A stretch of 63,930 bases of DNA, the filler included, from Atractiella rhizophila (Eukaryota), in NCBI GenBank assembly GCA_021432655.1. It is 4 parts of 4 records of this genome, joined end to end, with 100 filler letters (N's around TTAATTAATTAA, not from the genome) between each part and the next. Parts side by side here need not be neighbours in the genome. Positions count along the whole stretch, not along the records: positions 1 to 15,953 come from MU271918.1; 3 more parts are not named here. One strand, written 5' to 3'. This document shows, piece by piece, positions 2,878 through 52,861 of this stretch. The translations under genes and the position numbers were made by a program. The notes below the pieces were generated by a model. The model ran no database searches and was not told where the DNA came from. It saw only the letters and a list, made by a program, of their open reading frames with translations. Numbering within the stretch: the stretch's first letter is position 1; each line of letters starts with the position of its first letter.

Positions 2878-4347
2878 TTAACTCCGCCTTGCTCCCCCTT
2901 TTTTCAACCAATCTTGGTATGGAACCAGCATTCTGTCCTTCGTCCCTTCCCCACGTTCAAACCACAGATCCACGGTTTGACCTCGTGCATAAAAGATCTC
3001 TCTAATGCTTTCCATGAAAGGTCCTGGTCCTCTAGAACCATAACCGTCAACTGAAACCAAGCCTAAAACAAGCTTTTCCAAACCGCAGGCGAATTTCGGC
3101 GCAGTTTTCTCGCTCGTTAGCAAGTCGAGCTCAGGTTGTACTCGATGATCGTCCCATGTACAATAATGGAGTGTCAGGTGAAAATATTTCAAGGAAGGAG
3201 CCAACAACTTGAAAAAGAATACGGGTCCGGGTGTATCGGTCCACATGGTGTTGATTTCGAGTGAAAGGAGACTGCGACATGACTGGATGATGTCTTGCAA
3301 GATGCGACAAAGGAGTTCTTGATTCCAAAGCCAGTCCTCATCTCCTTCATCATAAATCCAAAAAAAGTTTCCAAACCCGTCATATTCTGCCCATTTGAAG
3401 CTCAGCTCCTTCAATTGCTCCCCAAACTTCAGAAATGGCGCTGACCATATCTTCTCGTCGTTCGTGTCTCGTGCAGTCTCGCCGATGATGCGCGTATCGA
3501 GAAAATGAAGCCTCGAGAGGAAAGGAGAAAGTGAAAGGATGTCTTGAAGATCTGTCGGTGCAATTCGAGATTGGTAAAGCTTGAGACAGGTCAGAGTCTC
3601 CGTGAGGAATCGATTGTTTGCGGTGTTGAGACGAGAAACAATCTGTGGTGAGCGAAAAGATCCAGGTGTGCTGATGGAGGAAACTTGACGGAAAACAATC
3701 GTTGGGCAATGTGAGTGATCGAGCATTCCAAACACTGAGTTGATAATAAGGGCATCACGCACTGAAACTGTCCCAAATTCTAGAAGTTCGAGTTTCGGCG
3801 TTTTCGATGGGCAAAATAAATCACAGATCGACGGATCCAGATAGACTGCAGGGGGCATTGATACCATTCGAATACCTCGAAGCGAGTCGCTGCAGAGTTG
3901 GATAATGTCTGTAATCCCCTTCCTCCAATTTTCTATTTGTTTTCTACACTTGCTCCTGTTGTCTAGCTGCGCGCTGTTCAAGTTCTTTGCTTTCAATTCA
4001 CAATCTACCCTTTGCCGTTCGTATCGGCTCTCTTGGATAAACCTTTCGTCAAAGTCCGAGGCTCGTGGAACGAAAAGTATTTCACGAACATAGTGGGCAA
4101 GACTTGGTTTTGCGAGAAGGGTTGCGTGAAGTGTGCTGAGCTGGAAAGTGCTTTGAATGAACGGCTTCTTAAAAATGAGGGATTGACAAGCGGAAGCAAA
4201 TAGAGGCGATAGAATAGAGAGAGAAGATATCCAAGTGACAGAGTTGAGAGATCCGTGGCGCTTTGAGCGCCGCATATCAATTGAAGCGAGCACCAAAATG
4301 TGAACCATAATTTCGAGAGGAAGGTCATGGATTGGGCAAGTCTTCAT
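2878..4347 (-). CDS. F-box-like/LRR-like hypothetical protein, 489 aa
   Basis: Uninterrupted ORF. N-terminal IHDLPLEIMVHIL resembles an F-box start, followed by Leu-rich LxxLxL segments. Confidence 0.65.
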   Translation of the reverse strand: MKTCPIHDLPLEIMVHILVLASIDMRRSKRHGSLNSVTWISSLSILSPLFASACQSLIFKKPFIQSTFQLSTLHATLLAKPSLAHYVREILFVPRASDFDERFIQESRYERQRVDCELKAKNLNSAQLDNRSKCRKQIENWRKGITDIIQLCSDSLRGIRMVSMPPAVYLDPSICDLFCPSKTPKLELLEFGTVSVRDALIINSVFGMLDHSHCPTIVFRQVSSISTPGSFRSPQIVSRLNTANNRFLTETLTCLKLYQSRIAPTDLQDILSLSPFLSRLHFLDTRIIGETARDTNDEKIWSAPFLKFGEQLKELSFKWAEYDGFGNFFWIYDEGDEDWLWNQELLCRILQDIIQSCRSLLSLEINTMWTDTPGPVFFFKLLAPSLKYFHLTLHYCTWDDHRVQPELDLLTSEKTAPKFACGLEKLVLGLVSVDGYGSRGPGPFMESIREIFYARGQTVDLWFERGEGTKDRMLVPYQDWLKKGGARRS

Positions 4348-5344
4348 ACTAGTGGTTCAGCAGATAATCAGCTCATTGGGTTTGGCTGTGAATTAGGACT
4401 AGGACTCACTGTGGTGGGACTATCCTAGGCTTGAAATCAGACCTTCTCAGGGGAGGGCCAAACTTGGTCATGGTTTCGAGGTCAGGGGCGGCAAATAACA
4501 AATTCTCGTCTTTTCAATGTGGAAAGAGGTGGAATCAAGTTATTTAAGGAGGAAGAAATCCGCAGCAAGTTCCCGAGTCATTCGATCATTAAAATGCAGG
4601 ATTAATATTATTAATAATGCCTGCATCATGCGTCTAGATGCACGATCTGTCTCCCAACAAAACAAGCAAATGCGCTAACGAAGGCCAAGCTACAGATACA
4701 TGACTTCCTCTTGAAGTCATAGCAGTTATGGGGCATGCGGATTGTGACTGAGTTCGGGAGTCCTAAAAGCCCAGGGAGCAAGTTGCAGCGACAATGATAG
4801 CCTCAACAGGTTTCCTGGAAGAGATTGAAGCCCTGAGGCAAATCTCCTCACGAGAGGATGCGCCTCGATCTTTCACCATCAACTAGTCTCAACCATAAGA
4901 AAACGCTTTAACACGCTCCTACTGCCCTCGAGCCTGAGAATTGCGAAAGACAACCTGATGGCACGAGTTCTTGATAGCGTGAGATACAGAAAGGACTATC
5001 GTAAAAAAATTATGCCGCAGCACAATATTTTTGATCAGGTTGGCGATATCAAACGTATATCAGGTGTTCGCAGTCAAGCAGAATGCGAGACACTCATCAT
5101 CGAGTAATAAGCGTAATTATGGCATGAAAAATGGTTAGCAGGATCCCTACCTTTGACTCAAAAGAACATCACACTTCGCGACCTAGTACTCAGCACCATC
5201 AGCCTTAATAAGCGCACCACATAGCACCCCTACATCCACTCGCACAGCTCTGCCGCTCACTCAGCGCTCCATCTCGCCGACTTAGGCTTATCCGCTCGTC
5301 CCCCTTAAACCACTTCTCTTCTGTATAAATCTACAGCCGTCCGG

Positions 5345-8483: not shown

Positions 8484-8973
8484 TGTTAGGGCTAACACTA
8501 TGTGCGGTCGCCGATAGGCGATGCGTCTGTAGTGGAGGTAAACCTAAGAGAATGATATGGCGTGAGAAGACTAACCTGTAGTGGAGGTAAACCTAAGAGA
8601 ATACTCTGAGGTCACCCCCACTACATCTCGATGTATATATACATAAGTAAAGGCACTGCCATAAACTGTAACATAGGTTACTTGAAACGTGTAAGATAGC
8701 TAGATCAGGAAAGTAATAAAGGGAATACTCGGAAATAAGATATACTGGGTAGTACTAGTGAGAAAGGACAATAAGGCGAAAATGGAGACGGTGCAGACCG
8801 GCGAAATGTATAAGGTCCGCTGAGCGGCGATTCGTGTGAGGAATGGAAAAGCGGCGAACAGCGCAGACCCCTGCAGAGCGGCGATGGGTAGGTACGTGAT
8901 CACATGACACGGTAAGATGGGTCACGTGACTTCGGATGGTGCATTTCGGTAATGCGTGGGGGCAAGCCTGACA
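8484..8973 (-). repeat. 3' LTR, 490 bp
   Basis: Ends TGTTAGG...CCTGACA (TG..CA, 6/7 inverted match). Directly preceded on the minus strand by a G-rich tract. The second LTR is not in view, so identity and TSD (candidate CCCTT, 8479-8483) cannot be confirmed. Confidence 0.8.
8527..8602. repeat. 27-bp perfect direct repeat inside the LTR
   Basis: CTGTAGTGGAGGTAAACCTAAGAGAAT at 8527-8553 and 8576-8602. Confidence 0.95.
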
Positions 8974-8990
8974 ACACCCCCCAAATTCTT
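8974..8990 (-). other. Polypurine tract (PPT)
   Basis: Minus strand AAGAATTTGGGGGGTGT directly abuts the LTR start TGTCAGG. Confidence 0.7.
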
Positions 8991-9098
8991 GACTGGCGTG
9001 CTTGAGTCACGGAATTTTTAGGTTAAGGTTTGCGGTTAGTTGGGGCGAAGATTTTTCCCAGTTCTTCCACCATCTCCCGCTCTTCTTTTCGTGTAAAA

Positions 9099-10614
9099 AT
9101 GTCAACCGACGCACAACTCTTCGACTTTGTCCTGGCGAACAAGGATAGAAAGGAGAGCACAGTTTACTGGGATGTGGAGAAAGCGAAAGAGGTGAATTTC
9201 GGGCGATTTGCCGATGTGTTGGAGTGGGGGAAAAGGTGTTATCCTCTGTATGTCACATTTTGTGATGAAGTACAAGCAGAGGTAGGATTTCTTGTCTTGG
9301 ATGGTATGGTTGGGTGTATGTGGTGACCCGTCGGCGGTGGGAAAGGTGCGAACGGTTTATGAGTCTGCGAAAGGGTTTGGTGATGGGCGCGTTTTGTCGT
9401 TCCCGCTGCGGATGTCTGTGGAAGACATGCAGGTCTTGCGGGATGATCTTCGGCTTTGGGTGGAACAAGCAGCGCTCGTCGAGGAAGAAGCGGCGAAATT
9501 CGGGTTTCAGCCCTCTGAATCGGCGAATGGGGACCCCGTTTTGCGAAGGAAAGAACGAGAACTTTTCTTGTTTGACACGAAAAAGCGTCTGGCGAAAGAG
9601 GAGGAGGAACGAAAACGAGCGGCGCTCGAAAATAAGCGCCGAACGGCTGAGGAAAATTTACGCGCTCAAAAATCGATCTCAGCGGCGAAGGGGTCCGAGG
9701 TTGGGGTTGTGAGGGCGTTGTCTGACCATCTGGTGACTGCTACTACTTTTGTTTTGCCTGCTGCATTGGGGGACCGAAATCCGTTCGCCGGTGCGCCAGT
9801 CGCCGAATTTGTAGTGCGCGACGGGAAAGTTCGAATAGGCGACAAGGAATTGGACGCATCGAAATACAGATACTTTTGGCCAGGTACTCGCGATGCCTAT
9901 TCTCATGCTGCTGCGAACATCAACTTGGGCGAATTGGACCTTGAATTGGTTATCACGACTCCTCGGGCGAATGCCCGTATTCTTCCCACGTTGGCAAGCA
10001 TCGGGACGCAACGATGTAGTAACTGTACCGGAAAAATTCGAGCGGCGCCTGTCAAATCGGCGAAAAAGAAGGCCAAGGCCGACAACGACTCTCAGGTGTG
10101 CGACTTTTCTGCTGGGCACGTCGCGACCGCATTCGGACGGGTTTGTTCGCGTTGTCACAGTTCGCGAAAGAGGTGCGAGGTTTTGCCTCTGGGATATTTG
10201 CGAGAGCTATCGATGTTAGTCGTGATGTCGACTGCGTTCCACCCTAAACGCATCGGCGATGGGAAAAAACGTCCCTCCGCTGTCGCTGAGAGCAACTACG
10301 AGAACCTATCGGACGTCGACGAAGACTCTCCTGCGCATTCGATGCTTAGCGCCGCTCGGTTGTACTCCGAAGCGTTCAGCATGAACTTCGCGCAAACGAT
10401 GCTCGCGGCCGCCAGGTTGAATGCTCAAGCAGCGGCGGATGCTCTTAAGGCCGCCGAGTTGCAAATGGAATTGTATAGAAGGAGGCAGGATGATCGTGCT
10501 GCGGAGGATGGGGCTAGCGAGGGTTCTGTGCTGGAAGGTGTGGTAGCCGATGTGACTGGTAGGGTGAGTCTACCTGTTTTCGGCGATCCGTCTGACTATC
10601 TAGATGTTGTTTAG
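9099..10614 (+). CDS. Retrotransposon-borne antisense protein (~483 aa) with coiled coils and a Zn2Cys6-like six-cysteine cluster
   Basis: AAAATG start at 9099. Exon 1 (9099-9281, MSTDAQ..VQAE), putative 64-nt phase-0 intron 9282-9345 (GTAGGA..GGTGAC..AAG), exon 2 (9346-10614) in frame. C-x2-C-x24-C-x14-C-x2-C-x6-C at 10015-10176. Confidence 0.75.
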
Positions 10615-11221
10615 GCATCGTAGGGCACCTAACTCTTCGCCAGTTGTACAAAAGTCGTCGCATCGGCGAAATCGAGTTTCGACTCGGCGACTTAAAACCT
10701 TCGTTGGCTCAGGAGGCCTATGACAATTCCAATTATGACGTGTATTCTGTTTCTGCTTCGAGTAGTAGTGATAGTGAGGAATCCATTCGGAGCGGCGATT
10801 TTGAACTTTGAAATATATGTTTTGTGTCTCCGTATTAGCGGCGAATAGCCAAGCGGCGACAAGGGTAAACCGTGTCATGGTGGCATAAGGTATTGTGGTG
10901 AGTGGGGAGAACAGTGGCAAAGTGGGTGATGCAGGACTCACACTCCCCTGTCTAGGGGAGGACCCTCAGGCGTTCCTCCCACTAGCTACCCAAGCTTATT
11001 ATGGAGCTCGCAACCAAAATAGGCCTGGGCCACGCGTTCGTGGACACAACGCGCAGTATAACATGTCGGCGATTTGCGTGCTCGTCGCCGGTCTGTCTCC
11101 TTTGTGGAAGAATGTGTTGTCGAGCGAACAAGGATGGGGAAGCAAAAGGTAAAAGCAAAAAATAGGAAACAATAATCATCAAAACCAAAACAGAGTGGAG
11201 GATGAGGGGAAGTCGTTGTGT

Positions 11222-11661
11222 ACCTCGCAATTGAGGGATTTTTGAAGTTTGACCGGTATTGTTTTGGTGCAGTAAGCAACCGTTTGTGAAAATGGGGTGA
11301 GTAACTCACCGACAAACCGGTCGCCGATCTGTCCGTTAAGGAACAGACCGGCGCCTCGCTTAGACCTATGTTCAACAGTGTAACTAGGGATTCACCCAGC
11401 GAGGCGTATAGAGGAGTAGGACCTCTTAAAGTGATGGGGAGGGGACCTCGTGATTGAGGGCAATTTTCGTAAATGCGACATTGGTGATGGTGCGAGAACG
11501 CAATGAGCATTCGTCCTTGACGGGCAACGAATGGACTCACCAACGACCAAGTCGCCGACTTGTCCGTTGAGGAACAAGTCGGCGCCTTGCCTCGACCTAA
11601 GTATCAAAGACTAGGATTTCACCCGGCAAGGCATATAGGGGTGTTGGACCCCTTAAAGTGA
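11222..11661. repeat. Two diverged tandem copies (~11222-11434 and ~11445-11661) of a multi-stem structured element directly 3' of pol
   Basis: Same order of stems in both copies with compensatory changes, e.g. GCCTCGCT/AGCGAGGC versus GCCTTGCC/GGCAAGGC, and AGAGG/CCTCT versus AGGGG/CCCCT. Confidence 0.8.
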
Positions 11662-14600
11662 GGAAGGCCCTTCAGCACGTTTTCGTCGAAGGTTACGAAA
11701 ACGCGCATTTGGGCGATTTTTGGCGGAGTTCGGTATGGGGTCGGGACGAACTGCGAGAGGGTGTGCAGTGTGATAGTCTTTTATAGCATCTTGTGAATTT
11801 TCTAGTTCTGTGATGTTGATCCACTCGTCCTCAGATGGTGAATACCCTTTATATTGAACGCGATATGTGAAAGCTTTCTTTCGGGTACCGAACCACTTCC
11901 CATCTACTATTTTTTCTACTTCCCATTCCTCAATTCCATTCACCAATTCCGGAGGTGGTTTAGGTAACTGGATTCTGCCAGGGATGTCGTCTCTGTTGAC
12001 TTTTCGTATTAGGCCCACATGGAACACTGGGTGTATCTTCCATGAGGGTGGTAACTCGAGTTTGAGGTTGAGAGGACCCAAAACTTGCAGAACTCGAAAA
12101 GGGCCATGCCATTTGTCGTCCAACTTTTTCACCGGCCTCGTCGACTTGATGTTTTTCGCACTCAACCAGACGAAATCGCCGACGTGGTATTCGGGCGCCG
12201 GTGCGCGTTTCCTGTCATAATGTTTTGCCATGAGGTCTGCTGCTTGCTCGAGTGCTGCTCGTGCTTCTCGGTCGGCGATTTTCATCTTCTCGACGAATTG
12301 TGCTGCTGCTGGAACGTCTTCGTCGGAGATGGGTTCAAAGGCCATGCGTGGATGTTGGCCACAATCGAGCGAAAATGGAGTTACGCCCGTCGCCGAACTG
12401 ACGCGATTGTTGAGCGCAAATTCTGCGTTGGGAAGTCCTTCCACCCAATTATCTTGAAGGTGATTGCAGAAAATGCGCAAATATTGTTCAACCTCTTGGT
12501 TCATGCGTTCAGTCTGACCATCACTTTGCGGGTGATAGGCTGTCGATGGTGAACCTTTGATACCTAATAGGCGAAAAAGCGCGGATGTGAATTTGGACAC
12601 GAACTCTTTGCCTCGATCGAAAATTGCGACATCGAAAAGTCCATGCAACTTCCATACGTGATCGCGAAAGAGTCTTGCAAGGCCTTCTGCATCCATCGTC
12701 GAATGGGTGGGGATGAGATAGGTGCGTTTTGAGAGTCTGTCTACTATGACGAAAATCGTGTCGAACCCCCCAGATTCTGGGAGTGGTCCAACCAAATCCA
12801 TGCTGACAATTTGCCAGCGACGTGTGGGAATGTCATTTGGTTGCAAAAACCCGACAGGTGGGGAAGGAAAGTTTTTCGTTCTGTGGCAAGTGTGACAGGC
12901 GCCGACATAGCGGCGAACGTAGTGCGCTAAACCTGGCCACCAATAGTACCTTTTTACTAGAGCTGTCGTCGATTTTACGCCTGGATGACCGGCGATTTGC
13001 GAATCATGTAGGTCTTGCAAAATCGAGCGGCGAATTTCATCGTCGCGGGGGACGTAGAGTTTTCCGCGAAAGTAGACAGCACCATCGACTTCTTGCCACT
13101 CCCGCCGGCGAATTGCGTTGACTGGTTCGTCAAGGATCTCTCTCAAGGCTTTGACTACTTGTTCTTCTCGTTCAGGTACCTTTTTCACGCGTTCCAGTAT
13201 ACTCAACTCCGACATTTGTCTAGTGAGCGCAACCGCGCTCCCAGTCGCGTTGATCGTGATACGATCCGTGTTGAAAAAGCGTTCTGGGAGTAACACTACA
13301 TCAAAGTTGTCGCAAGTCGTCGGTTTGTGATCCGGTCGCCGACTGAGCGCATCTGGTTTTGCGGAGTTCCGCCCAGGACGGTGTAAAAGTGTGAAGTTGA
13401 AAAATGCAAGTTCAGTGATCCAGCGTGCCTGTCGGCGATTCAACTTCTGCGGCATTCTGAAATACTCAAGGTTTTTGTGATCGGTCAAGATCAGAAATGG
13501 CTCATCAGTACCCTGTAGAAGGTGTCTCCATTCTTGCAGTCCCCGCATAATCGCGAGCATTTCTTTGTCGTAGGTGTCATAGTTCCTCTGGGCAGCGTCA
13601 AGCGATTTTGATACGAAACCGAGAGGATGAAACTTCCCATCTGGTTTCATTTGTGACAAAACGGCGCCTGTCGCGAAATTTGACGCGTCGACTTCGAGTA
13701 AAAATCGTCCTATTTGTTCGGGATGTGCCAAAACGGGCGCCGAAATCATGAGCTGTTTCAAAGCGGCGAACGAACGTCGTTCATCCACCCCCCAGACCCA
13801 GGAAATCTCTTTTTTGGTTAGTTCATATAAAGGTCTTGCGATGTGACTAAATCTGTCGCAAAAGCGGCGATAGAAATTAGCGAAACCAAGGAACATTTGG
13901 ACTTCCTTCATGTTTTTCGGTTCCGGCCAATCCATCACTCCTGCAACCTTTACTGGATCCGGTTCGATCCCTCTGCTGGTAATGATCAATCCTAGATACG
14001 CTACTTCGCTTTGACACCAGACACATTTCTGTAAGTTAACATAAAGCCCATTTTCGCGCAAAATTTGACAAACTTCTCGAACGCGTTCCCAGTGTTCTTC
14101 TTCAGTTTCTGTCGCAATTAGGATGTCGTCAATGTATATGAAGATGAACGCAGCGGCGATCATCGCGCGGAAAATAGAGTTCAGGAAAGCTTGGAAAGTC
14201 GCCGGTGAGTTGCAGAGCCCGAAATACATTACCAATGGTTCGAAAAGTCCTCGATTTGTGCGAAACGCCGCTTTGTGTTCGTCTCCTTCTTTGATACGAA
14301 CGTTGTTGAACCCTTTCCTCAGATCAATCTTGCTGAAAAACTTCTTACCAGAAACCATGGAAAAGAGGTCAGCTTGAATGGGGAGTGGGGTCTTATCTTT
14401 GACTGTGGCTTCGTTCAGCTTTCGATAATCGAAAAGAGGACGAAGTTCGGAGGAGTCTTTTTTGTGCGTGAAAAAAACAGAAGCTCCATGTTCACCTGTG
14501 CTAGGACGTATACGACCCGCGGTCAGTTCGGCGTCAATGAATTGGTCGAGCGCCGCTTGTTTGTCTTTTTTCAGGGGGTAGACCGGGCCCGCATATGGTC

Positions 14601-15446
14601 GTGATTCGGGTATGAGGTTGATCGCGTGATCCCAAGGACGTCGGGGAGGAAGAGAAGTTTTGAATTTTTCGTCGTCGAAAATGTCCGCAAAATCGGCGAT
14701 TTGCGTTGGTATTTCGACGACACTTCTTGGTCTCATCGCCGCTGCGTCCTTCGCCAGTTTCTGCGATTTTGTCATAGCGGCTAGTATCAAGGTCGACGAT
14801 GGCGGGAAGTGTTCGCGAGTGGTAGACACGTCATCTGCATTGCAACTGGTAGGGCAACGAGAGAACTCAACTTTCCCTGAGTCCCAGTTGATCTCTGGGT
14901 TATGGTGTCTTAGCCAGTCGTGGCCCAGAATCATGTCGACAGTCCCTAAGTCTGCTACAGCGAATTGCCAAACCTCATGGTGAGCGGCGATCGAAATGGG
15001 CAAGTAAGTGACAGAATGGATGGATCCACCTTGATTGAGAGATCCGTCGATGTTATAAACAGGTACTGGGGAAGGAAGTTGAGTGACAGGTAGGTTGTAC
15101 GCAGAAACGAGTTTTGGAGAAATAAAAGAAGTAGTTGCGCCGCTGTCGACGAGCGCCGATGTGGCCTGTCGGCGATGGGAATGTGGATGGTGGAATGCGG
15201 TTCTGAGCTTCGTCTTCGAACTGACAAGAGATGCTGTTGTCGAGCGTAAGTGGACTTTGTCGTACATTTTCGCGACTTCTGCGCATCTTTGCCTCCAGGA
15301 GGGAAAACGCAATTTCGGGAATGGGGAGTCTTGCTCAGACGGGGGGAATACTGTGCTGGGCGGCATTTTGTTGGAAGTGATTTTAGATGACGTAAATGAA
15401 TTGCAAGTCGGCGATGGGGACACTTCTTCCACCCACCACCGTCCTA
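11653..15446 (-). CDS. pol: Gypsy Pol polyprotein: protease, RT, RNase H, integrase, chromodomain
   Basis: Open 1259-aa frame with ALVDSGAT (protease), YIDD (RT), EVDAS..NYDTYDKEMLA..TDHKNL (RNase H), H..H..CHTC plus the SMDLV/FDRG/QTER catalytic core and GPF (integrase), and EEWEVEKIVD..YKGYSPSEDEW (chromodomain). Confidence 0.97.
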
Positions 15447-15453
15447 AAAATCC
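15410..15453 (-). other. -1 ribosomal frameshift signal (gag-pol)
   Basis: Slippery G GAT TTT (15453-15447) just before the gag TAG. pol is in the -1 frame. Stem GGTGGTGGG/CCCATCGCC starts ~6 nt downstream. Confidence 0.75.
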
Positions 15454-15953
15454 TCCTCAAGATCTTTCGATTGGGTAACACTCGTTTTCGGCGACTGGTC
15501 AGCGAATTGTCGTTCTTGGTGCATCATTTTTGAATCAAAATATTCTCCTTGAGCTCGGAGATATTGCTCCTTGTTCATAATCGTTCTACACTCCCTTTCC
15601 CGGTGTCCTATCTTTTGGCATCGTCTGCAACGGGGAGGTCTAGACTTTGTCGCGTCGACTTCCATGTCATCGGGATCTTTGGCCCTATGAGCGTGTGGAG
15701 CGGCGTTGGGTGACGGATCGGCGACCGGTGACAAGGCGGCGCTCGGTCGATACGATACGGGCGTTCTGTTCTCTCTGTGCTTTGAGGATTTTGAGCTGTC
15801 CCTTTTTGCAGAAAACGTATTTTGTGGTCCGTCTTTCGCCGATGGGATGTTTCGAAAGAAGGTTGAATGAGCAGATTCTTCCGCATCAATTCGCCGAGAT
15901 TTTTCTTTCCAGTCTTCCAGCGATTTTGGGAACTCTCCTTGGGTTACTTTGAG
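15444..15953 (-). CDS. gag: Gag C-terminal part (truncated by gap)
   Basis: DPDDMEVD motif, then the CCHC knuckle CRRCQKIGHREREC, ending EEDF*. Confidence 0.88.
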   Translation of the reverse strand, partial: LKVTQGEFPKSLEDWKEKSRRIDAEESAHSTFFRNIPSAKDGPQNTFSAKRDSSKSSKHRENRTPVSYRPSAALSPVADPSPNAAPHAHRAKDPDDMEVDATKSRPPRCRRCQKIGHRERECRTIMNKEQYLRAQGEYFDSKMMHQERQFADQSPKTSVTQSKDLEEDF

Positions 15954-16951: not shown

Positions 16952-19900
16952 ATGGTCGCAGCGCCTTCCCCCGTGCAGGCAACAAGACCACTCCCATCGA
17001 ACCAGCCGCCGAAAAGGAGGTCAAGCAGCCTCTTGGTAGCGAGGCATGGCACAACTGGCACTCATAACACTCATCCCGGTATCTCTCATCAAGGACTCGG
17101 GTTCGCAAGGACAATTACGGGAGGAACTCATGGAGGAGTGAAGAGGAAGGGGGTTTTGGGCTTTTGGGACGCTTGTCTTAAACATCTTAATTTTTATCGG
17201 TATGCCTACTTCCCCTTTCTGTGTGATCACCAATTTTATTCATGTTACGAATAGTGTACATTTGATCGCCTTCACCATCACTCCACTCCTCGCAGCGACC
17301 ATCTTCTACCTTGTCGATACTGAGCGGAAATGGGACTTCGTCGACTGTTTATTCAGTATGTTCCCCACAATCATCTCCTTCACGTCATGTTGCAGCGCTG
17401 AAGCGTGAAGAATAGTGTGTGTCTCAGCCGTTACAGTGACGGGGTTGACCACCATCGAGCTCTCCTTGATCACGCGTGTGCAACAGGCCATCCTCTACGT
17501 ATTTATTTCAATTCCATCTTCAATCTCCGAGCAACTAAACGAGTCAATAGGTGTTGATGGGTCTCGGATCAACTGTCAGCATCTCCTCTCTTCGTATTGC
17601 ACCAGTGGTATTGATGACAGGGTTCACAGTCCGGCGTTTCCATCGTCTTCATCATCATTCGACGGTATCGTATCTCCCTCTCACTGCACGGCATGACCTG
17701 ATGGAACATTGACAAGGAATTATTTCCGCCGTCGGTTTGCCCACATCATCCAATCGAACGCCGTGATCCGGAAACGGATCGTGGACCTTGAGATTGCAGA
17801 GGTTGTGCCCCACCTCCTACAAACCCTAGAGCTAACGTGTGTATGGGCGGTCGGGGTATAGGACATACAACGGAGTCGAAAACCATGGTACAAGCGACCA
17901 TTCCAAGTCAACTCTCACCATCCGAGTCCAGCCAGCTCTTCTGCCGCCTCTTCAGCTTCAGAAGCTAACGGCGGAAGGAGGAAACAGCTGAAAAAGGACC
18001 TCATTCGAAAGCTGGACATCCCGGTGTTGGTGAATAGGATGAACGTCGGTGGGGTGTTGAGCGAGATGCAGACGGACGCGGAGGAGAAACAGGACGAGAA
18101 GAGGAAGGCGGAAGGCGAGGCAGTGGAGGTGGGTACCAGTGATGGAAGTGAAAAAGAGAAACGAGAGAGCGGGGAAAATGAAAGTGGAGAGAAGAAGTTA
18201 GAGAAAAGGTCTTTGCATCCGAGTCGCACGCTCTCGTTTGTTTCCCCCTCTTGCATCTTTGCGGAGTCTTACAAGTGAAGCGTAGGATTCAAATTGCGGA
18301 AGAGCCAAAAGGACTTCAGCTAGACTTCCCGAGGCCCTCCCCAGTTGCTCAACATCTGTCAAGCTTTCTCGATTCTCCTCGAGCTCAAGTTCCACACGAA
18401 TCGCCTCAGGCGCTGACTGATTCTCCAAAGATCTTATTCCATCCCGCCCTCCACTCTCCACACGAGCACGACCTTCCGACACCGAACAGAAGGCGAACGA
18501 ACTCAGACCCTCTCTTACGCTCCTCCTCATTACATCCCTCCATCTCCATCTCACAGCTGCACCCGCTCCACCCCAAAGTAGGTCCAGACGCGGAGACCCT
18601 CCGTTTTTTGCGCACGCGCACGGTCGCAGCTGATGGAGAAGATGAGATCGAGGACCACATCTCCGAGCTTCAACCCAACCTAGTCGGGAGGATGGGGAGG
18701 CGTGGACTGGGCGGAGTGGGTGGAGTAGAAGGGGGTCGGGGCATGCCGCGCACACAGACCGTCGAATTTTCATTACCCCAGCGGCCGCTTGGAGGCGGAG
18801 GGTTGCGACAACGACAATTTACGGGAGCAGGTGCTGGAGGGGGAACTGGGCCGAGGAGGAATAGCACGCTCCCTCCCGCTTCTAATGTCGGTCAGGTGGG
18901 AAGCACGGGAAGGCGTCCGAGCGTTTCTACGGGTGGGCTGGAGAGGAATTATACGCTCAGTCATGATCCTAATTCGGCCATGCATCGAGATTTTGGTGGT
19001 TTCCCAAATCCTGTGATAGCCGCTGTCGGATTCGTTCATCGTCATGTCATACCGAAGACGGTGGAGAGGAAGCTCACCATGCCCAAGACAACGACGCTGC
19101 TCAGTGCTGCCAATGGGGAGATAGGACCTCATGTACAGCTCCCGAATGGAGAGACGAAGGAGGTTAATTACATATCGTTTGACGCGCTGGTAGGAAGGAA
19201 TAGCAAGTTCTATGATCTAACCGATGAGCAGGAAGAGGAGTGAGTGCTGTTCCTCTTCTCTGCTGTCTCAGACACCTTTGTTAACGAACGCCTAGGTTGG
19301 GAGGGGTAGAATATCGCGTAATTAGATCTCCACAAGATTGCAACGTGTGCTGACAGCATTTGTAGGCGTTATCTGTTCTCCTCAAAATCGTAGCTTGTTA
19401 TTGGATTGGTTGTCAACTGCTATCTGTTGTCATCGTCGCGCCATACTTCTCAGCCGCGAGTCAATATGACGATGTCTTCAAGGCAAATCGCGTCAATGCA
19501 GTGTGGTTTACGTTTTTTTCAGACCTCAACTGCCTTCACGTACGCCGTTCCTTCCCTGTTATGGGCTCTGCTAACTTCGCGCAGGAATTGTGGGATGTCC
19601 CTTGTCGGTAGGCATTTTGCACACCCCCAATGCCCTGCCTGAAGCGGGGCCATAGACACGAGCTTGACGCAGTTCCAAGAGGCGTATCCACTTTTGATCA
19701 TGACAATATTCCTTATTCTGGCTGGCAACACCGCCTTCCCGATCTTCCTTCGTCTGACCATGTATGCATCTCCGTTTTACCATGAACCACTTACGGACTA
19801 AGGTTGTTCTCACGACCGCAGCTGGACACTTTCCAAACTATTCCGCAAAGGGACGAAAAACAGAGAAACACTCCAGTTCCTTCTTGAACACCCCCGACGC

Positions 19901-22365: not shown

Positions 22366-24845
22366 CGTTCATAGAATAGAACGACGGGTTCCTAAACATC
22401 TCGATCGCCCTCTCGACCAGTTCTCCGGGCGCACTCTCGTCATCGTCCGCCACGCTCGACGCTGAGTCCGACGATATCGAGAACGGGTTTCCATGTCCTG
22501 CAGCTCCTTATCCTTCGACTTGTAGAACGAGATCTCCGGTGAGAGGATCTCCGTCGGCGGGGGAGCGTTCAGAGGGGACGACGGGCGCTTCAAAGGTGTC
22601 GTTTTGCTCCTCGCCGGCGTCACATTCTCTCTCGTCGGTGCCTTCGCCGGCGTCGTACTGCTCCTGGGGGGCTGCTGCTTGGCGGAGGTCCTGATGTCAG
22701 CCATTGAAGGACGGACAGGGGTTGTGGATCCCGACTTGGGGGTGGTGTGACCAGATTTGGTGGGAGAGGTGTTCCTCGACGCCTGTTTCTTCTGCATCAT
22801 CTCGAAATACCTCCTCCTCTTCTCCGCCACCTCCCTCGCCACCTTCGCCGGGTCCTCCTCTTCGCTTTCTCTCCCATTCCTCCCCCGACTCCCGTATGGC
22901 GCCGGATCCACGGATTCGTAGTCCGAACGCATCGTCGTCGAGCGCGAATGTGAGCGAGAATGCGAATGCGAATGAGACTGCGGCTGTGAGTCCTCGTACG
23001 AGCTCGGTTCCTGCCAGGCGGGATAGTCCTCAAAAACCATCTCGTTCTTCGCCGGTTCATTGAACTCATAGCCGCCCATGTTGACGACTTTCTGAGGGGA
23101 CGTGCTCCTCTTATTCCTCGCACTCATCCCCATCCCTACACCCTGAGCTGTGGTGGCGTACCTGGCGCTCCCATTCCTCGGCAACTGCAACTGAAACGGG
23201 CTCAAACTCTCCTCTTCCTCCCTCACCTCTCCCCTAGCGCCAGCAGCAGCCTCCTCCAACTTAGCCGCATCCGACAACCTCGAAAACAAGCTCTTAGACT
23301 GTCCCCCCGGTTTTCCGCTCATAACGATCGGCGCGCCTGTCCTGCTCCTCCCGCTCTGCACTTTCGAATTCATACTCGAAGACGACGGGGGCGAGGCACC
23401 ATTAGGCAGGGGAACATTAGCGTACGGTCTGAGCTGGTCGAGCGCTGCTGCCTGCTTCAAATGCTGTTGATGCTTCTGCTGCTGCTGCTTAGCAAACAAG
23501 CTCCCGGCAGCAGCGACGGCGGCGGAAGGAGGGGCGATGGGTTCTTGAGTGCGCATGGACGCGATCCGGGACACGATCATGTCCACCTGCGTAGGGGTGA
23601 CCTGCCCTCCGCTCGAGTTCGCGCTCGCACTCGCGGTTGAGGTCCGGCTTCCGGATGGCGGGGAGGGAGCGCGAGATGGCACGACGGGGACGTTCGAGTA
23701 GGGGTAGCGCGCTGTGCTTGCACCTGAGGCGCCAGTGGAGGAGGAGCGGGAGCGGGAGAGGAAGTTGCCGGAGAGAGGTGGCGAGACGCCTTTCCCCGCG
23801 GAAGGTGGGGTGGTACGACTGCTGCTGAGTGCGGACGGAGGGGTTGTCCGGGAGGATGAGGTGATGGATGCTGGTGTGGAAAAGTATTGGTGGGTCGGGG
23901 AGACGGTGTATGACGAAGAGGACGATGCGCTCTTGGTCGGACTGATGGAGGAGGCGGACTGAGTGCCATACGCCGGTCGACCCCAGTTAGATCCCCGGTT
24001 CATCGTTGTTGAGGTAGAATTTGACCGAGTGGAGGAGAACCAGCCTCCGCTTGAACTTGCGCTTCGTGTCAAGGATGGATTAGAACTGATGGCGGATGTA
24101 GAGTCGGCCCTCGGCCTGGCTCCCCATGAGGACCCCCGCTGATGTTGCGCCGGAGGTTGATTTTGGGTTTGATTTTGGGTTTGTGCGGAGGAAGCGAGAG
24201 AGTTGAGTCGTGAGGCTAGCTGGGAGGAGGACACGCCGTTGGACTGAGCGGATGGGTAGGGTTGGCGCGATGAGGAGGCGACGGGAGCCTTCGATCCGCC
24301 AGCTTTGAGTTGTAAGTTGAAAGGAACGGAGTCCATCGTCAGTGGCATGTTGCTGTTCGATTCGAGTAGGTTCAGTCGAATCACGATTGAGTCACGAAAT
24401 GAAATCGTCAGATGGTTGCGATAGGAAGGAAGGAAGAGACGAACCAAGTGGGACAGACGGCGTCTTGTCCAGATTCTGATAATCGTGCCCAGAGGCAAGT
24501 TTCGTGAAACAAGTCACCGCACGCGAGTTTGATGACGGGTACGATCCTGTTGCTCGACTTTGAGAGGGCCTCTCCGCACAAGGGACACTCTGTGAGCGCC
24601 ATCAGCGATCGATGTCCAGATCTTGGGGAGGTGGAGATGGATGGGGATCCGGATGACGCATGGGGATGGATGGACAGGGATGACGTACGGTACGCGTTTG
24701 GACTTCGCAGGTTGAGCCTCTGCGCCCTCACCTGGGATCTGTTCAGCGCCTGCTGGCTGTTCTGGGCGGAGGAGGATGCGTGCGAGGGGTACGAGGCAGC
24801 TGGTGTGGGCGACGATGCGCGCTTGAAAGAGGAAAAGATGCCCAT
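22190..24845 (-). CDS. RING-finger protein with a long Ser/Pro-rich disordered region; one apparent frameshift
   Basis: CPLC..C.DLFHETC..CPT(C) RING-like motif, an intron near 24445, a long low-complexity exon, and a frame switch near 22505 into GNPFSISSDSASSVADDDES..GFLER*. Confidence 0.7.
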
Positions 24846-28809: not shown

Positions 28810-31408
28810 GAACCACATCCTGATCAAATTTATTCATCCAAGTATTGAGAAATGTGAGCGAGATGAACATGTGGAGATAAGTTCTTTGAGGGCGAACCAC
28901 CATTCCATGGACAGTTGTTTGAGTGGCCATTCACGAGCACATGCAGAAAAGCAAGCGATTTGTTATTGTTATACTGTTACAGGTGTTACAGACTCAAAAG
29001 AACTCTGAGCCTATCATGCTTCGGCTGCAGGACTCACACAACGTTCACGTCAGAGGTGCTCGCGGTTGCTTGAGCTTATCTATAATTATCCAATGAACCG
29101 CTGAGCTTTCGAGTTTTCTGGAACAGGTTGCTGCTATACCCTCCGCAAAATCTTGTGGCTCGCAACATCTTCTTCTGTCTTGGTCAATGGTCGGACGAAC
29201 TCACTGTTACTCCTTGAGGATGGTATCAATCGTGAGCTCTCTGATCAGGGAGTCATGTCGTGGGGAAGAGCTGCTCATCTTCGTATCGGGAAACGGGCGA
29301 GTTCTATGAAAACTTGGATGCCTTTTCGAGGAGACCAACAACCTTGGATGAATGTTCGTCCACAAAACTTCCTTCACGTAAGAAGGTCATGAACCTAAGC
29401 TGTTGTCCTGCCGAATTTGTCATTCTCTGAAGCTTCGTAACATTAGAAAGCGGCATCGAGGATATCGTTGCCTACCGATTTGATCAAGTTAGGTCCCACC
29501 TTTTCAGATCCCATAAACCACAATATAATAGTGTGAGATCTTACTCAATCATGGCAATGGATAAGTGGTGGACGCTGGAGCTAGAACGTGAAGCGGGTAA
29601 GGACGGAAGAAGGCAATCAAGACTGCATGAAGCAAAAGAGCTTTCTGAGGCCGACAGACATGGCCAGACAATGACAATAGACGTCTGTTGTCCGAACAGT
29701 AAAGCATCACCTTTCCCTTTTCACAAGACTTGATTGGCTTCAAGTTGATTGACAACTCACGGTAGTTTCGGGGGATCGCTAGCACTACTGAAGCTGTGCC
29801 GCTCGATAAGAGGGTGCGAGCTTGAAAGTGGATGCTGGATGCTGTGGAAACTACTGTGGGATATTCTGGGCCTTTGGACCAGCGAGTGGCGGTAGAAGGT
29901 TTTGAAAGTTTGTGAAGAAGGCCCGGGGTGGCCGATGACCGTGAACCAGCACAACGTACATCTTTCGAACATTCCCATCTACCAAAGCTTCGTGTAGAAC
30001 CAATGTATCCTTCATTCCCAGGGATGGATCGTGCATAGCTCCAAGCTTCAACGAGTTCGAGAACTAATCCGTGTCATGGATCCGGGCTCAGGAGAGGCAC
30101 TGTACCAGGAAGGGAATCGGAGCTGCTGAGTGAGGTGGAAGGTGAACGTCTCTAAGAGTACTGTCTTTCAATCCTCTTATTCATTGGAGTTTCTCTTGCT
30201 TGCTCGTGGGATCCGATGTCTGTCCTCCTCGGCTCGCCAGAGACCCACTTGGAGATTCTGCAGTATCTGAGTGACGGTCTCTTGAAACGATCAGAGAATT
30301 GTGGAGGCGAAAGTGTGGAGTTGAGGCTCGGCTGACTGATCCAATCCATTTCCCCAGCTCTGTTACCAGCGCAGCAAGAATGCTTGCTCGGGAACCATCC
30401 CTTCTCACCCGTATTGCGTTACGTTGCGCTCGTCAACAGAGATCGAGAGGAGCACGAACACCTCCAAAAAAGCCTGCAACGAATACGCAACGCCAAAAAA
30501 GGTTCACTGCATGCCAAACCCGATCATTCTCAAACTTCAACTCATTCAGCCATTCTGGCATCTGAAAAACAAATCTGAAATTTGGAAGCTTTCCACGAGC
30601 CAAGGCTTTGTCGGGTTCAATCAGCCTTACTTCCAATTCAGAAAAGCTCGAAACCAACTCGAACTGTCCGAGGCTCCAAAATGGTTGAATTTGGGCGTTT
30701 GTTATTTGCGGAGATGGTTTCGATGGTATCACGCATGCTGATTTCATTCAAGGACTGTGGCTGCGGCAGTCCATAAGTGGAATCTACGAGGAGNNNNNNN
30801 NNNNNNNNNNNNNNNNNNNNNNNNNNNNNNNNNNNNNNNNNNNNNNNNNNNNNNNNNNNNNNNNNNNNNNNNNNNNNNNNNNNNNNNNNNNNNNNNNNNN
30901 NNNNNNNNNNNNNNNNNNNNNNNNNNNNNNNNNNNNNNNNNNNNNNNNNNNNNNNNNNNNNNNNNNNNNNNNNNNNNNNNNNNNNNNNNNNNNNNNNNNN
31001 NNNNNNNNNNNNNNNNNNNNNNNNNNNNNNNNNNNNNNNNNNNNNNNNNNNNNNNNNNNNNNNNNNNNNNNNNNNNNNNNNNNNNNNNNNNNNNNNNNNN
31101 NNNNNNNNNNNNNNNNNNNNNNNNNNNNNNNNNNNNNNNNNNNNNNNNNNNNNNNNNNNNNNNNNNNNNNNNNNNNNNNNNNNNNNNNNNNNNNNNNNNN
31201 NNNNNNNNNNNNNNNNNNNNNNNNNNNNNNNNNNNNNNNNNNNNNNNNNNNNNNNNNNNNNNNNNNNNNNNNNNNNNNNNNNNNNNNNNNNNNNNNNNNN
31301 NNNNNNNNNNNNNNNNNNNNNNNNNNNNNNNNNNNNNNNNNNNNNNNNNNNNNNNNNNNNNNNNNNNNNNNNNNNNNNNNNNNNNNNNNNNNNNNNNNNN
31401 NNNNNNNN

Positions 31409-31955
31409 TCGTTCGTCCGCTCGATGGGACTAATGGCTGCGGCGCAAAGGAATTCAGCTGCTTAGATGGCTGGGATTCACTGAGATTGCCGCGTACGCAT
31501 CTGAAAAACATTCCGCTCACCTCCTCTCTCTCGGAGCCACGAAGGTGCTCGACCATTCCAAAGTTACACTGGGAGATCTCCGAAAGACAATTTCAAACTT
31601 TGACGTCGTCTTGGATGGTCTCTCCACTGCGGAATCGCAGGCTGCGAGCCTAGATTGTTTGAAGGAGGGAGGGAAGGTGGTGAACGTGATGTTGCGATTC
31701 CCTGAAGGGATTGAAGAGCGTTTGAAGGCCGAGAACAAAGTCGGAGCGAAGGTTTATGGTCTTTTTGATAGGAGCACAATAACCGAGGCTGCTCATGATG
31801 GAGTCCCCAGGCTGATGCAAGAGAGGTTGTTGGTCGTATGTCTTCTTTCTTCATCACTGAATCTGGGAGGTGATGCAGTTATTTATAGGGAAATCGATAC
31901 GAAATTTTGCCGGGAGGCTTGTCAGGAATAGAGGCAGGTATTGGTCGCATAAGGA
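31409..31955 (+). repeat. Near-identical copy of 28212-28759 (3' half of the MDR gene), flanked by gaps
   Basis: Differences seen: one SNP (28572 C versus 31769 T) and a 1-nt indel. Confidence 0.9.
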
Positions 31956-48493: not shown

Positions 48494-49435
48494 GTCTCTC
48501 TCACGCTTGCACGGGTCTATTACTCTCTCGAACCCGTCGTGGCTCTCTATCATTTTGTATCGTTTTGTTGTTGGATGATTGATTCTCGGCTGCGTTCCTG
48601 AATGTATCCCAACCACGCTTTATCACTAAACAAATGACATGCTCAATAAATATTCTCCGTTGTAATACATCCTAGCCTCTTCAATTCATTAAAAACGAAG
48701 TCATGGAACAGACCTTCCGCATTGTAATATGCTTCACTCGTCACGTTAGTTGACTATCAGATCATCAGATTCCAAGGGGTGGATATTGCAGTGCTGTGGA
48801 TTTCAACTTTTTTCCACGGCGCCAGTAACGTCTTACTGGCAGCCACCATGGAAACGTGTCCTGTCATTACATTGCTCTATGTATTTAATCGTTGGTTTCT
48901 ATGCAAATTGGTTCAGCTACATCAGCGTAATGGTTCCTTTTACTTGACACAGACAGGCAAACAAGAGCGCGTTCAACGCACGTGACTTCGATCACGACAA
49001 AAAGACAAAAAGGCAAGGTATCCTTCTTATATCCTCTTGGTCCCTCCCACGCCTGCAGCTTTTGGCCACCAGCTCATTGTATCAAGGTAACTCAACAGGT
49101 CAGTTCGGCTTCACTCTCGACGGGCGAGAAGGCGGAGCGGGAGGGAGACTTCCCGTTCAGGATCGTTATCCCATCTGGTCCCGGACGTTGTGAGATTCCT
49201 TTAGGGCTGGCAGTTAAAAGTCACTCACTCTCGCCCTGTATCAGTACCACCCGCTCCGATTCGCTTCAGCCTCTGGTTATTCAAGACGGTTATTGACGAT
49301 TGTATCGCTGTCTGGTTGGGTCTACAGGTACTTTTTATATCACCGTAAGGTACGCTTTCTCGTAATTTGTATTGAGGGACAAGGGATAGACAAATGTTTG
49401 GTTTTGTGGTGGTCATAGGAAGAAGAACAAACACG

Positions 49436-52400: not shown

Positions 52401-52441
52401 TGTTGATTGTCATTAGTCGGGTTAGCACGGAGTTCAAGTGA
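49436..52441 (+). CDS. ~1000-aa intronless protein: disordered N-terminus, two CCCH-like motifs, charged coiled coil, C-terminal WP..FHxD helical domain
   Basis: ORF track 49394-52441 (first in-frame ATG 49394; the start given here, 49436, is a guess). Motifs IAHAE.GYCAG..C..YC..HGDQ twice, and VTWP..RKFHQDR. Confidence 0.75.
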   Translation: MKIYSPSNTRTNDPFHPHISSSATTSPLAFNIGLSTPLPPKPYRTRIRKPSQTPSPLSEDSVPGLRMAAQTQSEEEVEDVFGSSPIGLLGRGEGRNTSIQSESGVATIPFQATRARNTYISVQAPTARLASAFTFGSSPPTRSSQGPADRSEEDARAATPGEEIAQASDSRFGLPTPPSSPDLKGRKLRPLPSRSSMAAHVQKTPSGKDKGGSGKGTGEKTPASAYVSGLHTPPSTPTRTSNLSSRSETPDNAQTAHTDGKDVRKPEERSPAVAINTPPSTPITASNPPPRPSKQPNRQDPESASTSAGPTSTNANEFGSALPIPPPTRTNGTISNADGNTFKFVFPTNPLPTKPSKAAPADSSRKESEKVEANGGGGKGRQRPFDFTTASNVPTTTNTKTTPLGKYSFNIGSSTAPPRSSNGPEKPAPKVDLRSTFMNTPPNNGAEKIPAPAPGVKTTSPYPQTNNSRFTSNIPSTGAPPAAQSYPQTNNSRFTSNVPTTPPPAAQYPQNNNSRFTSNIPAGSSKPPPSERCRRPPPRAKPSYVSSSDNSSATSSDSDSDSEGPTFRGWRKASSNNTPPRNPSSSRPPPYSPPPSYSSARPSASDRASPPRGKPSRDVFTDEQLIAHAESGYCAGVGTSTNRMCGNRSTTGYCRHHGDQRYTPQGQRLNAYFQNTSSNTSRRQFRTHFEPPKSGNEEAISRSDNEAIAHAELGYCAGMTRKNNLCMNTAQPWKGSKYCHLHGDQANSSRGQKLWKYWDEKKRKSEEERKERERKRKEEDARKKRAEEEKEYERRRKAREEWARKWEEARRKEEEQERRAEQEKERFWQKFEEDQQRGKKEQERQRYAILLGQTRLLKPMYSFRSTTSAPRPASKSNFSVNLVEFYTQSISAPLNVSLPFSKVTWPALDTGRPISPSDITDEAVRAFFERVKKCIQDEQVKTRDATKKAKLAKMVTQLAKETIRKFHQDRLESLAAKVDGVEKDELKRVLIVISRVSTEFK
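50819..50998 (+). repeat. Three coding repeats YPQ(T/N)NNSRFTSN(I/V)P
   Basis: Copies at ~50819, 50891 and 50957 with synonymous differences. Confidence 0.9.
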
Positions 52442-52861
52442 TGGTCAATTGGTTTTTCGCTTGATTGTATTTGTCTACGAACGATCGCTGGCTAACGTAA
52501 GAATGAAATATCCTTTACCAGATATGCAACGTACTCTTTCCATGCACCTGCACGACTTCATTCGACCTGAACGGCGCATTCATACTTCTGACAACGAATC
52601 TGAATTTGGTTATTTGCGCATGTTGTCTCGGAAGAAGGTTACTTTGCGCACTTTGCCACTACGAAACCCAAGGTCCTGCTCAACGAACTGCTTTGCGCTG
52701 ATGCAGTGCGTATTCGCCTGACATTCTATCGTGAGCGCTGACTAGCAGGAGAATAGGCATTATACACAAAGAGCCCCCTAGTTCATGCAATGGGAGCTCT
52801 ATTTTGCCCATAAGCCACTCACTAGTATCACACGGTACCCCTTCTACTAGGCTGAAGGGAG

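What the first reader, a model, noticed from the sequence alone, without database searches (positions are those of the whole stretch)
11222..11661. Duplicated, covarying multi-stem RNA-like element starting at the pol stop codon
Seen: two ~215-nt diverged units share the same series of stems. These are a CCTC/GAGG hairpin; a long bulged stem (GACCGGT(A)TTGT/ACAAACCGGTC versus GCGAC(A)TTGGT/ACCAAGTCGC) enclosing smaller hairpins; GCCGATCTGT/ACAGACCGGC versus GCCGACTTGT/ACAAGTCGGC; GCCTCGCT/AGCGAGGC versus GCCTTGCC/GGCAAGGC around a CCTA..TAGG stem; and AGAGG/CCTCT versus AGGGG/CCCCT. Several differences are compensatory. Both units begin on the minus strand with TCACTTTAA, the last pol codons and stop. 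Inference: a selected RNA structure, possibly for export or packaging (by analogy with retroviral CTE/RTE or the RSV direct repeats), for protecting the long 3' UTR from NMD, or an unrecognised ribozyme. Wobble pairs do not settle the functional strand.
Basis: partly seen in the sequence, partly recalled or inferred. Interest (0 to 1): 0.72.

Follow-up and report, generated by a model that had tools for sequence, protein, structure and literature searches.

The report
Pseudoknot RNA behind retrotransposon pol
Right behind the last gene of a fungal jumping gene sits a twice-repeated, knotted RNA fold followed by what looks like the front half of an intron with no proper end; evolution has kept it in two diverged families, so it is probably a working switch on the element's own RNA, perhaps deciding which copies are translated and which are packaged.

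Summary
Confirmed. Two ~225-nt units follow the pol stop of a fungal Ty3/gypsy chromovirus with about 45 genomic copies. Among copies their cores vary about four times less than pol four-fold sites, stems covary, and G.U changes favour the sense (minus) strand. No Rfam family matches.

New here: (1) each core is probably an H-type pseudoknot with a hairpin in each loop. I predicted this helix first; a diverged second family then showed it with two two-sided changes. (2) A short subfamily lacks the antisense gene and long 3' region but keeps both units, which argues against long-UTR protection and an antisense role. (3) Each unit ends in a hairpin-masked splice-donor-like hexamer with a branch-like hexamer at the spacing of this genome's candidate introns, but YAC where the acceptor should be and no AG for 49-87 nt.

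Best reading (0.4): a gated, acceptor-less splice module that sorts translated RNA from packaged genome. Main rival (0.3): a CTE/MTE/DR-like export or packaging element whose splice-like letters are incidental. No RNA data; family B copies are decayed; nothing found outside this genome; the scan has noted this element many times.

The parts
11653..15456 (-). pol frame (protease, RT, RNase H, integrase, SH3, chromodomain) of a Ty3/gypsy chromovirus; stop TAA at 11655-11653
11446..11662 (-). Unit 1 (whole)
11656..11661 (-). Unit 1 pseudoknot strand a (UCACUU), also the last two pol codons
   Evidence: family B counterpart
11637..11653 (-). Unit 1 hairpin A, in pseudoknot loop 1
   Evidence: 5 pairs, one two-sided change between units
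11584..11632 (-). Unit 1 stem b (11632-11625 with 11591-11584), enclosing pseudoknot strand a' (GGGUGA, 11624-11619) and hairpin C (11615-11596)
11554..11583 (-). Unit 1 hairpin D, abutting stem b; UCAA in the loop is shared with family B
11475..11555 (-). Unit 1 arm E: donor-like G|GUGAGU (11540-11535) paired by a G.U-rich helix to branch-like GCUCAU (11508-11503, A at +37); CAC at 11492-11490 where an acceptor would stand; first AG 57 nt after the A
11446..11459 (-). Unit 1 hairpin F; holds the first AG after the branch-like site (as GAG, in the stem)
11223..11435 (-). Unit 2 (whole)
11353..11434 (-). Unit 2 pseudoknot core: a 11434-11429, hairpin A 11426-11410, stem b 11405-11398 with 11360-11353, a' 11397-11392, hairpin C 11388-11365
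11323..11352 (-). Unit 2 hairpin D
11251..11324 (-). Unit 2 arm E: donor-like G|GUGAGU (11309-11304), branch-like GCUUAC (11277-11272, A at +37), CAC 6 nt and UAC 17 nt after the A, first AG 49 nt after the A
11223..11236 (-). Unit 2 hairpin F
9099..10614 (+). Antisense accessory gene (predicted intron about 9283-9345), only in the long subfamily; codon positions 1/2/3 vary 0.050/0.031/0.183
8993..9008 (-). Branch-like hexamer and CAG just before the PPT: a possible distant acceptor
   Evidence: short subfamily; family B
8484..8985 (-). PPT (about 8975-8985) and 3' LTR (8974-8484)

Best explanation
Each unit is a control element on the sense RNA with two halves. The 5' half is a four-helix H-type pseudoknot (a:a' stacked on b, a hairpin in each loop) followed by hairpin D. 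The 3' half is the front of an intron: a donor, a branch site 36-39 nt on, a pyrimidine run, and YAC instead of YAG, with the donor folded against the branch region. While the donor is masked the RNA stays full length and serves as genome. When it is exposed (during transcription, or after a terminating pol ribosome has remodelled unit 1), U1 and U2 bind but cannot finish locally. The RNA is then held as a decoy complex, cut at the donor, or spliced to the CAG just before the PPT, giving an RNA that still codes gag-pol but has lost 3' signals; the pseudoknot would guard or organise that end. SHOWN by comparison: fold, selection, sense strand, independence from the antisense gene, and the presence, spacing and missing acceptor of the splice-like letters. 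INFERRED: that the pseudoknot forms in cells, spliceosome binding, gating, and every consequence.
For: Donor arm GGUGAG almost invariant while its partner arm varies (GCUCAU, GCUUAC, GCUUAU, ACUUAU): unit 2 helix 96.6% paired with the shared changes at pairs 16 and 21 on the 3' side only; unit 1 helix 96.9%. Family B has another canonical donor, G|GUAUGU (3 of 5 copies; GUAUAU in 2), which breaks two pairs with the unchanged GCUCAUUG, yet the branch-like A is at +36, and there the two motifs lie in an open loop of the centroid fold. Candidate host introns in the window are enriched over shuffles (11 vs 3.7, 4 vs 1.9, 4 vs 1.5, 5 vs 1.4); three read by eye have the A at +35 to +37 and YAG 11-13 nt later. 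The same donor-branch pattern hits 9 sites outside the element; 7 of 9 have YAG within 30 nt, against 0 of 36 unit matches in 24 of the 30 first loci. Precedents: RSV NRS decoy donor (PMC9143442, passages); first-step-only cleavage of fungal telomerase RNAs (PMC4299874, part 1 of 5 and passages).
Against: No RNA evidence of binding, cutting or splicing. Donor and branch consensus are naturally complementary, so a hairpin can mimic both, and GGUG can also pair with a conserved CACC. The 36 unit matches descend from two ancestors; with family B there are only three independent cases, in G-poor linkers where AG is rare anyway. Family B copies are decayed (81-83% alike): the branch hexamer is exact in 2 of 5, lacks its A in 1, and 1 has an AG three bases after the A. 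Two short-subfamily copies read ACUUAG and one copy of unit 2 has a YAG within 30 nt. The branch-like A before the PPT is missing in 5 of 16 short copies. The 9 outside sites are about as many as the reversed-pattern control (8), two are identical, and none is verified as an intron. Stalled spliceosomes trigger siRNAs in Cryptococcus (PMC6643885, passage), which would make such a module costly. No genomic copy joins the donor to the PPT; this fits exclusion from packaging and equally no splicing.
Confidence: 0.4

Rival explanations
1. A protein-binding export, packaging or dimerisation element of the genomic RNA, working like the MPMV CTE, RSV direct repeats or musD MTE; the splice-like letters are just one arm of a hairpin or a Gag/NXF1 site.
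For: Position between pol and the 3' LTR, about 450 nt, duplication, pseudoknot: all features of MTE and DR (PMC5767303 passages; PMC4588558 part 1 of 2; PMC9143442 passages). Kept in the long and short subfamilies and in family B. The 5' leader of a full copy is short and largely taken by a self-priming signal. GGUG occurs twice per unit.
Against: Does not by itself explain the switch between two canonical donors, the constant donor-to-branch distance or the AG-free zone. None of 79 metagenomic relatives, 1 viral-collection relative or the other families fetched from this genome has the element, so related elements export and package without it.
Confidence: 0.3
2. A mechanical block like viral xrRNAs: strand a threads the ring formed by a', hairpin C and stem b and stops Xrn1 (or scanning ribosomes), giving a stable 3' fragment.
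For: Pseudoknot whose 5' strand is the very 5' end of the fold, tandem copies directly after a stop codon (flavivirus layout recalled, not from a call); xrRNAs are pseudoknot rings (PMC11499389, passage). Helix a:a' supported across families.
Against: No Rfam xrRNA family matches. Loop 1 carries a hairpin, unlike described xrRNAs (recalled). No downstream sense frame was shown to be conserved, and short copies would give only a short fragment. Arm E is unexplained.
Confidence: 0.1
3. A shield against nonsense-mediated decay at the pol stop, like the RSV RSE.
For: Starts at the stop in family A and 10 nt after it in family B; the long subfamily has 2.7 kb behind the stop.
Against: Kept unchanged in 16 short copies and in family B; gag and pol are separate overlapping frames, so most ribosomes should stop at gag, as described for RSV (PMC9143442, passage); the RSE is CU-rich, these units are helix-rich.
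Confidence: 0.07
4. The structure works on the antisense RNA (3' end or terminator of the accessory-gene transcript).
For: Plus strand also folds well (z -5.0); one short-subfamily arm E and one family B core fold better on the antisense strand; 6 shared and 15 single variants fit plus only.
Against: 16 copies without the antisense gene keep both units. Majority pairs: 56 Watson-Crick, 2 G.U on minus, 0 G.U on plus; shared variants 12 minus-only against 6 plus-only; every variant in 8 or more copies fits minus. The arm E helix has 4 G.U pairs in each unit.
Confidence: 0.05
5. A self-cleaving ribozyme of an unknown class.
For: Compact pseudoknot with invariant unpaired bases; the 4-nt joiner before b' (UCNA) recalls HDV J4/2 (recalled).
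Against: No Rfam ribozyme at E<=10. By eye there is no room for HDV P3/L3 between b and a', and family B lacks the joiner. A constitutive cut would destroy the template for reverse transcription.
Confidence: 0.04

Closest known systems
musD transport element (MTE) and related export elements (IAP RTE, MPMV CTE, MLV PTE)
   Same: Structured cis element of about 400 nt near the 3' LTR of an LTR retroelement, with a pseudoknot (PMC5767303 passages; PMC4588558 part 1 of 2).
   Different: No sequence or Rfam similarity; fungal chromovirus; tandem units starting at the pol stop; export not tested; carries donor- and branch-like sites.
RSV/ALV direct repeats (DR)
   Same: Two copies in one lineage and one in a relative, 3' of the coding region (PMC9143442 passages); here two in family A, one in family B.
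   Different: DR is described as a hairpin like the CTE; this unit has six helical parts and a pseudoknot.
RSV negative regulator of splicing (NRS)
   Same: A decoy 5' splice site in a retroelement RNA that binds U1 without productive splicing (PMC9143442 passage).
   Different: NRS lies in gag and controls a known env splice; here the site is behind pol, has its own branch-like site, and no spliced RNA is known.
Spliceosomal-cleavage introns of fungal telomerase RNAs
   Same: Donor and branch site directly behind a structured RNA, with features that would block the second step (PMC4299874).
   Different: Those use a long branch-to-acceptor distance with a strong branch site, GUCAGU or an AU donor, and an Sm/LSm site guards the end; here the donor is canonical, the local acceptor is YAC, no Sm site was looked for, and the RNA is a coding retroelement transcript.
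Three-stem H-type pseudoknots (coronavirus frameshift element) and xrRNA rings
   Same: Strand order a-b-a'-hairpin-b' with no bases between b and a' (topology recalled, not from a call).
   Different: Extra hairpin in loop 1; no slippery site or second frame here; resistance not tested.

Membership tests
Any Rfam 15 family (ribozymes, xrRNAs, CTE/RTE, snoRNAs) | Covariance-model score at the gathering cut-off | tested here: not met
   best 21.3 bits against cut-off 97, E 0.27; family B, 0 matches at E<=10
HDV-like ribozymes | Nested double pseudoknot with P3/L3 and P1.1 | tested here: not met
   By eye: b is followed directly by a'; no descriptor search was run because the script machine was lost
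HDV-like ribozymes | Self-cleavage | not testable with these tools
   needs bench assay
CTE/MTE/DR export elements | Structured element between pol/env and the 3' LTR on the sense RNA | tested here: met
CTE/MTE/DR export elements | Confers export of unspliced RNA through NXF1/Mex67 | not testable with these tools
   needs reporter
RSV RSE-type NMD shield | Directly 3' of a stop codon | tested here: met
RSV RSE-type NMD shield | Tied to a long 3' UTR | tested here: not met
   kept in 16 short copies and family B
Ordinary short spliceosomal intron | Donor hexamer and branch-like hexamer at host spacing | tested here: met
   consensus letters recalled; host introns are unverified candidates
Ordinary short spliceosomal intron | YAG 10-20 nt after the branch A | tested here: not met
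   0 of 36 unit matches in L001-L030
Spliceosomal-cleavage 3' end (telomerase-RNA type) or NRS-type decoy | RNA ends or lariats at the donor; U1/U2 binding | not testable with these tools
   no RNA run could be listed
xrRNA | Pseudoknot enclosing the 5' strand | tested here: inconclusive
   helix a:a' supported; threading not modelled
xrRNA | Blocks Xrn1 | not testable with these tools
   needs bench assay
ENE triple-helix elements | U-rich internal loop (recalled) | tested here: not met
   internal loop of stem b is G-rich

The most novel reading that the evidence does not exclude
[quoted passage not shown] This would be spliceosomal cleavage serving a coding RNA and an LTR element's translation-versus-packaging choice; the 9 papers listed for 'spliceosomal cleavage' plus 'retrotransposon' (listing only) concern telomerase RNA or trypanosome mRNA.
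Probability: 0.13. Interest if true: 0.88.

Novelty: new variant of a known kind. Interest (0 to 1): 0.6.

Why it matters
Cis-acting RNA elements that steer retroelement RNA are well described for retroviruses and mouse LTR elements; ten literature searches (listings only, open-access library only) showed none for fungal chromoviruses or this genus. This one has natural controls: two units, a long and a short subfamily, and a diverged family with one unit. It gives a small (about 230 nt) testable object for the open question of how LTR elements split one transcript between translation and packaging, with exact predicted cut sites. Its reach is limited: it was found in one genome only, and this scan has already noted the duplicated fold at least eight times; what is added here is the pseudoknot, the strand, the second family, the short subfamily and the splice-like module.

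Tried and rejected
Rfam: nothing. RNA runs: none was listed; no evidence either way. Relatives elsewhere: 79 metagenomic loci (best 80 of 585 confirmed; pol 39-57% identical), 1 viral-collection locus and other chromovirus loci of this genome carry no unit by nhmmer or models R1/R2 (best outside score 14.2 bits; default filters); many of those shown run from pol almost directly into the PPT, and some contigs end before it. Pattern scans: 3 chance hits in viral contigs (best 5 bits), 0 in prokaryotic genomes. Readthrough: the pol frame closes 13 codons after the stop (read). Strand a as branch site plus AAG acceptor: only 5 nt apart and not kept in family B. Kiss between loops C and D: partner not clearly kept in family B; left open. 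RRE-like partner for the antisense protein: units persist without the gene; the protein has no relatives beyond 6-7 Atractiella-named or unnamed hits and only weak Atlas leads (0.85 or less). Spliced genomic copy at the PPT: none. LTR-to-unit-2 deletion copies lack the priming site, so they do not show what mobilisation needs. A single alignment of families A and B put a' one column out of register, so the cross-family comparison rests read side by side. Searches used mis-registered structure strings and were redone. Planned scripts (CpG-filtered strand count, HDV descriptor search, pseudoknot energy) were not run because the script machine was lost. Supplements of papers were not read.

Full report
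Setting. The finding lies directly behind a 1267-codon minus-strand frame with protease, RT, RNase H, integrase, SH3 and chromodomain: a Ty3/gypsy chromovirus. Its 3' LTR is 8974-8484. Between them this copy carries a plus-strand gene under purifying selection whose named database relatives are all labelled Atractiella rhizophila, so the host is a basidiomycete of that kind. The two-unit region has 42 matches in the genome (40 of 57 candidates scored); a 25-place motif has 90 matches against 2 for its reversed control.

The observation. The stems are there and are not chance: z -7.5 on the minus strand, -5.0 on plus. On 22 unit sequences 98.2% of cells pair and 6 of 35 pairs have two-sided changes (mostly unit 1 against unit 2, so few independent events). 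The cores vary 0.026-0.028 per site among 30 copies, against 0.107 at pol four-fold sites; the 3' half of unit 2 varies at 0.098 but keeps its pairs. In 42 copies the majority pairs are 56 Watson-Crick, 2 G.U on minus and none G.U on plus; shared variants are 12 minus-only, 6 plus-only, 3 neutral, 1 broken; single variants 10, 15, 4, 18; all variants in 8 or more copies fit minus. Arm E has an 8-pair helix with four G.U pairs in each unit. Against this, one arm E and one family B core fold better antisense. I put the sense strand at about 85%.

The pseudoknot. Two 6-nt stretches that nested folding leaves unpaired, UCACUU at the 5' end and GGGUGA in the internal loop of stem b, are identical in both units and nearly invariant, while neighbouring linker positions vary freely. 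I noted the pairing. Within family A it cannot covary (98.5% paired, no two-sided change), though the isolated 5' fragments fold it. Model R1, which does not contain these pairs, then found a diverged unit in a second family (23.8 bits, E 7e-5; 39.4 bits for a sister copy), whose pol end is 31-56% identical over short stretches. There the strands read UCCAUU and (G/A)AUGGA: 28 of 30 cells pair in 5 copies, stem b 100%, and a' is a 7-nt bulge. Against family A that is two two-sided changes and one G.U-to-A-U change in six pairs; by rough arithmetic about 1 in 20 by chance, from one comparison, with one of five copies at 4 of 6 pairs. The order a, hairpin A, b, a', hairpin C, b' is an H-type pseudoknot with a hairpin in each loop. 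In family B the pol stop lies 10 nt before a and there is one unit.

The short subfamily. In 16 copies the PPT and LTR follow about 140 nt behind unit 2, with no antisense gene, and both units are kept with their own compensating changes. Copies with long open pol frames occur in both subfamilies. So the units do not depend on the antisense gene or on a long 3' UTR.

The splice-like half. Arm E carries G|GUGAGU in both units and G|GUAUGU in family B, a branch-like GCUCAU or RCUUAY with its A at +36 to +39, a pyrimidine run, CAC or UAC ending 14-17 nt after the A, and no AG for 57, 49 and 87 nt. Donor and branch consensus letters are from my own knowledge. Candidate host introns have the same anatomy but end in YAG: enriched in the window, and 7 of 9 outside sites with the same pattern have YAG within 30 nt against 0 of 36 unit matches; two such sites read in full have GCTCAT with the A at +39 and +36 and YAG ending 16 nt later, a third ends in GAG. 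In family A the donor is paired with the branch region and the shared changes fall on the branch side; in family B that pairing is broken but both motifs and their distance remain. A CAG stands just before the PPT in 16 of 16 short copies, in the long copies (9 of 10 as TCAG; an eleventh row was mis-chosen and does not align) and in family B, so a distant acceptor exists, though its branch-like A is missing in 5 of 16 short copies. Weak points: three independent lineages only, G-poor linkers, decayed family B copies, natural complementarity of donor and branch consensus, unverified host introns, no RNA data (one search listed no run), and no spliced genomic copy.

How it most likely works. A gated, acceptor-less splice module behind a pseudoknot, sorting translated RNA from genome (0.4 in all: decoy about 0.15, splicing to the PPT acceptor about 0.12, first-step cleavage about 0.13). 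Precedents seen: RSV NRS, DR, CTE and RSE (PMC9143442, passages), telomerase-RNA cleavage (PMC4299874, part 1 of 5 and passages), stalled spliceosomes triggering siRNA (PMC6643885, passage; a cost to this model). The export or packaging reading (0.3) rests on position and on musD MTE (PMC5767303, passages; PMC4588558, part 1 of 2). An xrRNA-like block (0.1; PMC11499389, passages), NMD shield (0.07), antisense role (0.05) and ribozyme (0.04) are less likely. Antisense genes behind pol are known from plant Retand elements and Botrytis (PMC11963269 and 10.1101/2021.04.13.439636, passages); Cer1 uses its own export protein (PMC10309623, passages), but the short subfamily argues against a cis-linked partner here.

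Membership and novelty. No Rfam family. It works like a retroelement post-transcriptional element but is not shown to be a member of any. It was not found outside this genome in 79 metagenomic loci, 1 viral locus, 3 pattern hits or prokaryotic genomes; close fungal relatives were not available. Earlier notes of this scan describe the same duplicated fold in other copies; they are not independent support, and the lines shown mention neither the pseudoknot, the second family nor the donor-branch module. Verdict: real, selected, uncatalogued; new variant of a known kind; interest 0.6.

Noticed in passing
window 10931-11030: A third highly conserved stretch (0.024 per site), only in the long subfamily: two hairpins, one with the palindrome GAGCTC in its loop. 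It overlaps the end of a canonical-looking 58-nt intron on the plus strand (10898-10955) that is kept in many copies, so it may belong to the antisense gene's 3' UTR.
   Followed up: partly
L061:1660-1760 (G000:C29) and window about 8590-8615: The sequence just behind the 5' LTR is complementary to a stretch inside the LTR downstream of a TA run: a Tf1-like self-priming signal instead of a tRNA primer site (Tf1 comparison recalled).
   Followed up: no
L061:3060-3115: gag ends on a GGATTTT run overlapping the pol frame and followed by a GC-rich inverted repeat: likely -1 frameshift signal.
   Followed up: no
L014, L020, L026, L029, L030, L171: At least six copies have lost hairpin D (26-35 nt) between short direct repeats, as expected if the hairpin forms on a single-stranded template.
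   Followed up: no
L168:640-760 (G000:C294), G000:C6: Deletion copies in which an LTR is joined straight to hairpin C of unit 2, without priming site, gag or pol, but with the antisense gene.
   Followed up: partly
window 9283-9345 (+): The predicted first intron of the antisense gene ends in AAG rather than YAG.
   Followed up: no
window 30640-31650 and 59770-60770: Two AT-rich, low-complexity tracts (GC 0.27 and 0.18) that give stacks of spurious open frames.
   Followed up: no
window 2878-4356, 22369-24513, 49376-52441, 52856-54487, 18182-19243: Long open frames with no Pfam match.
   Followed up: no
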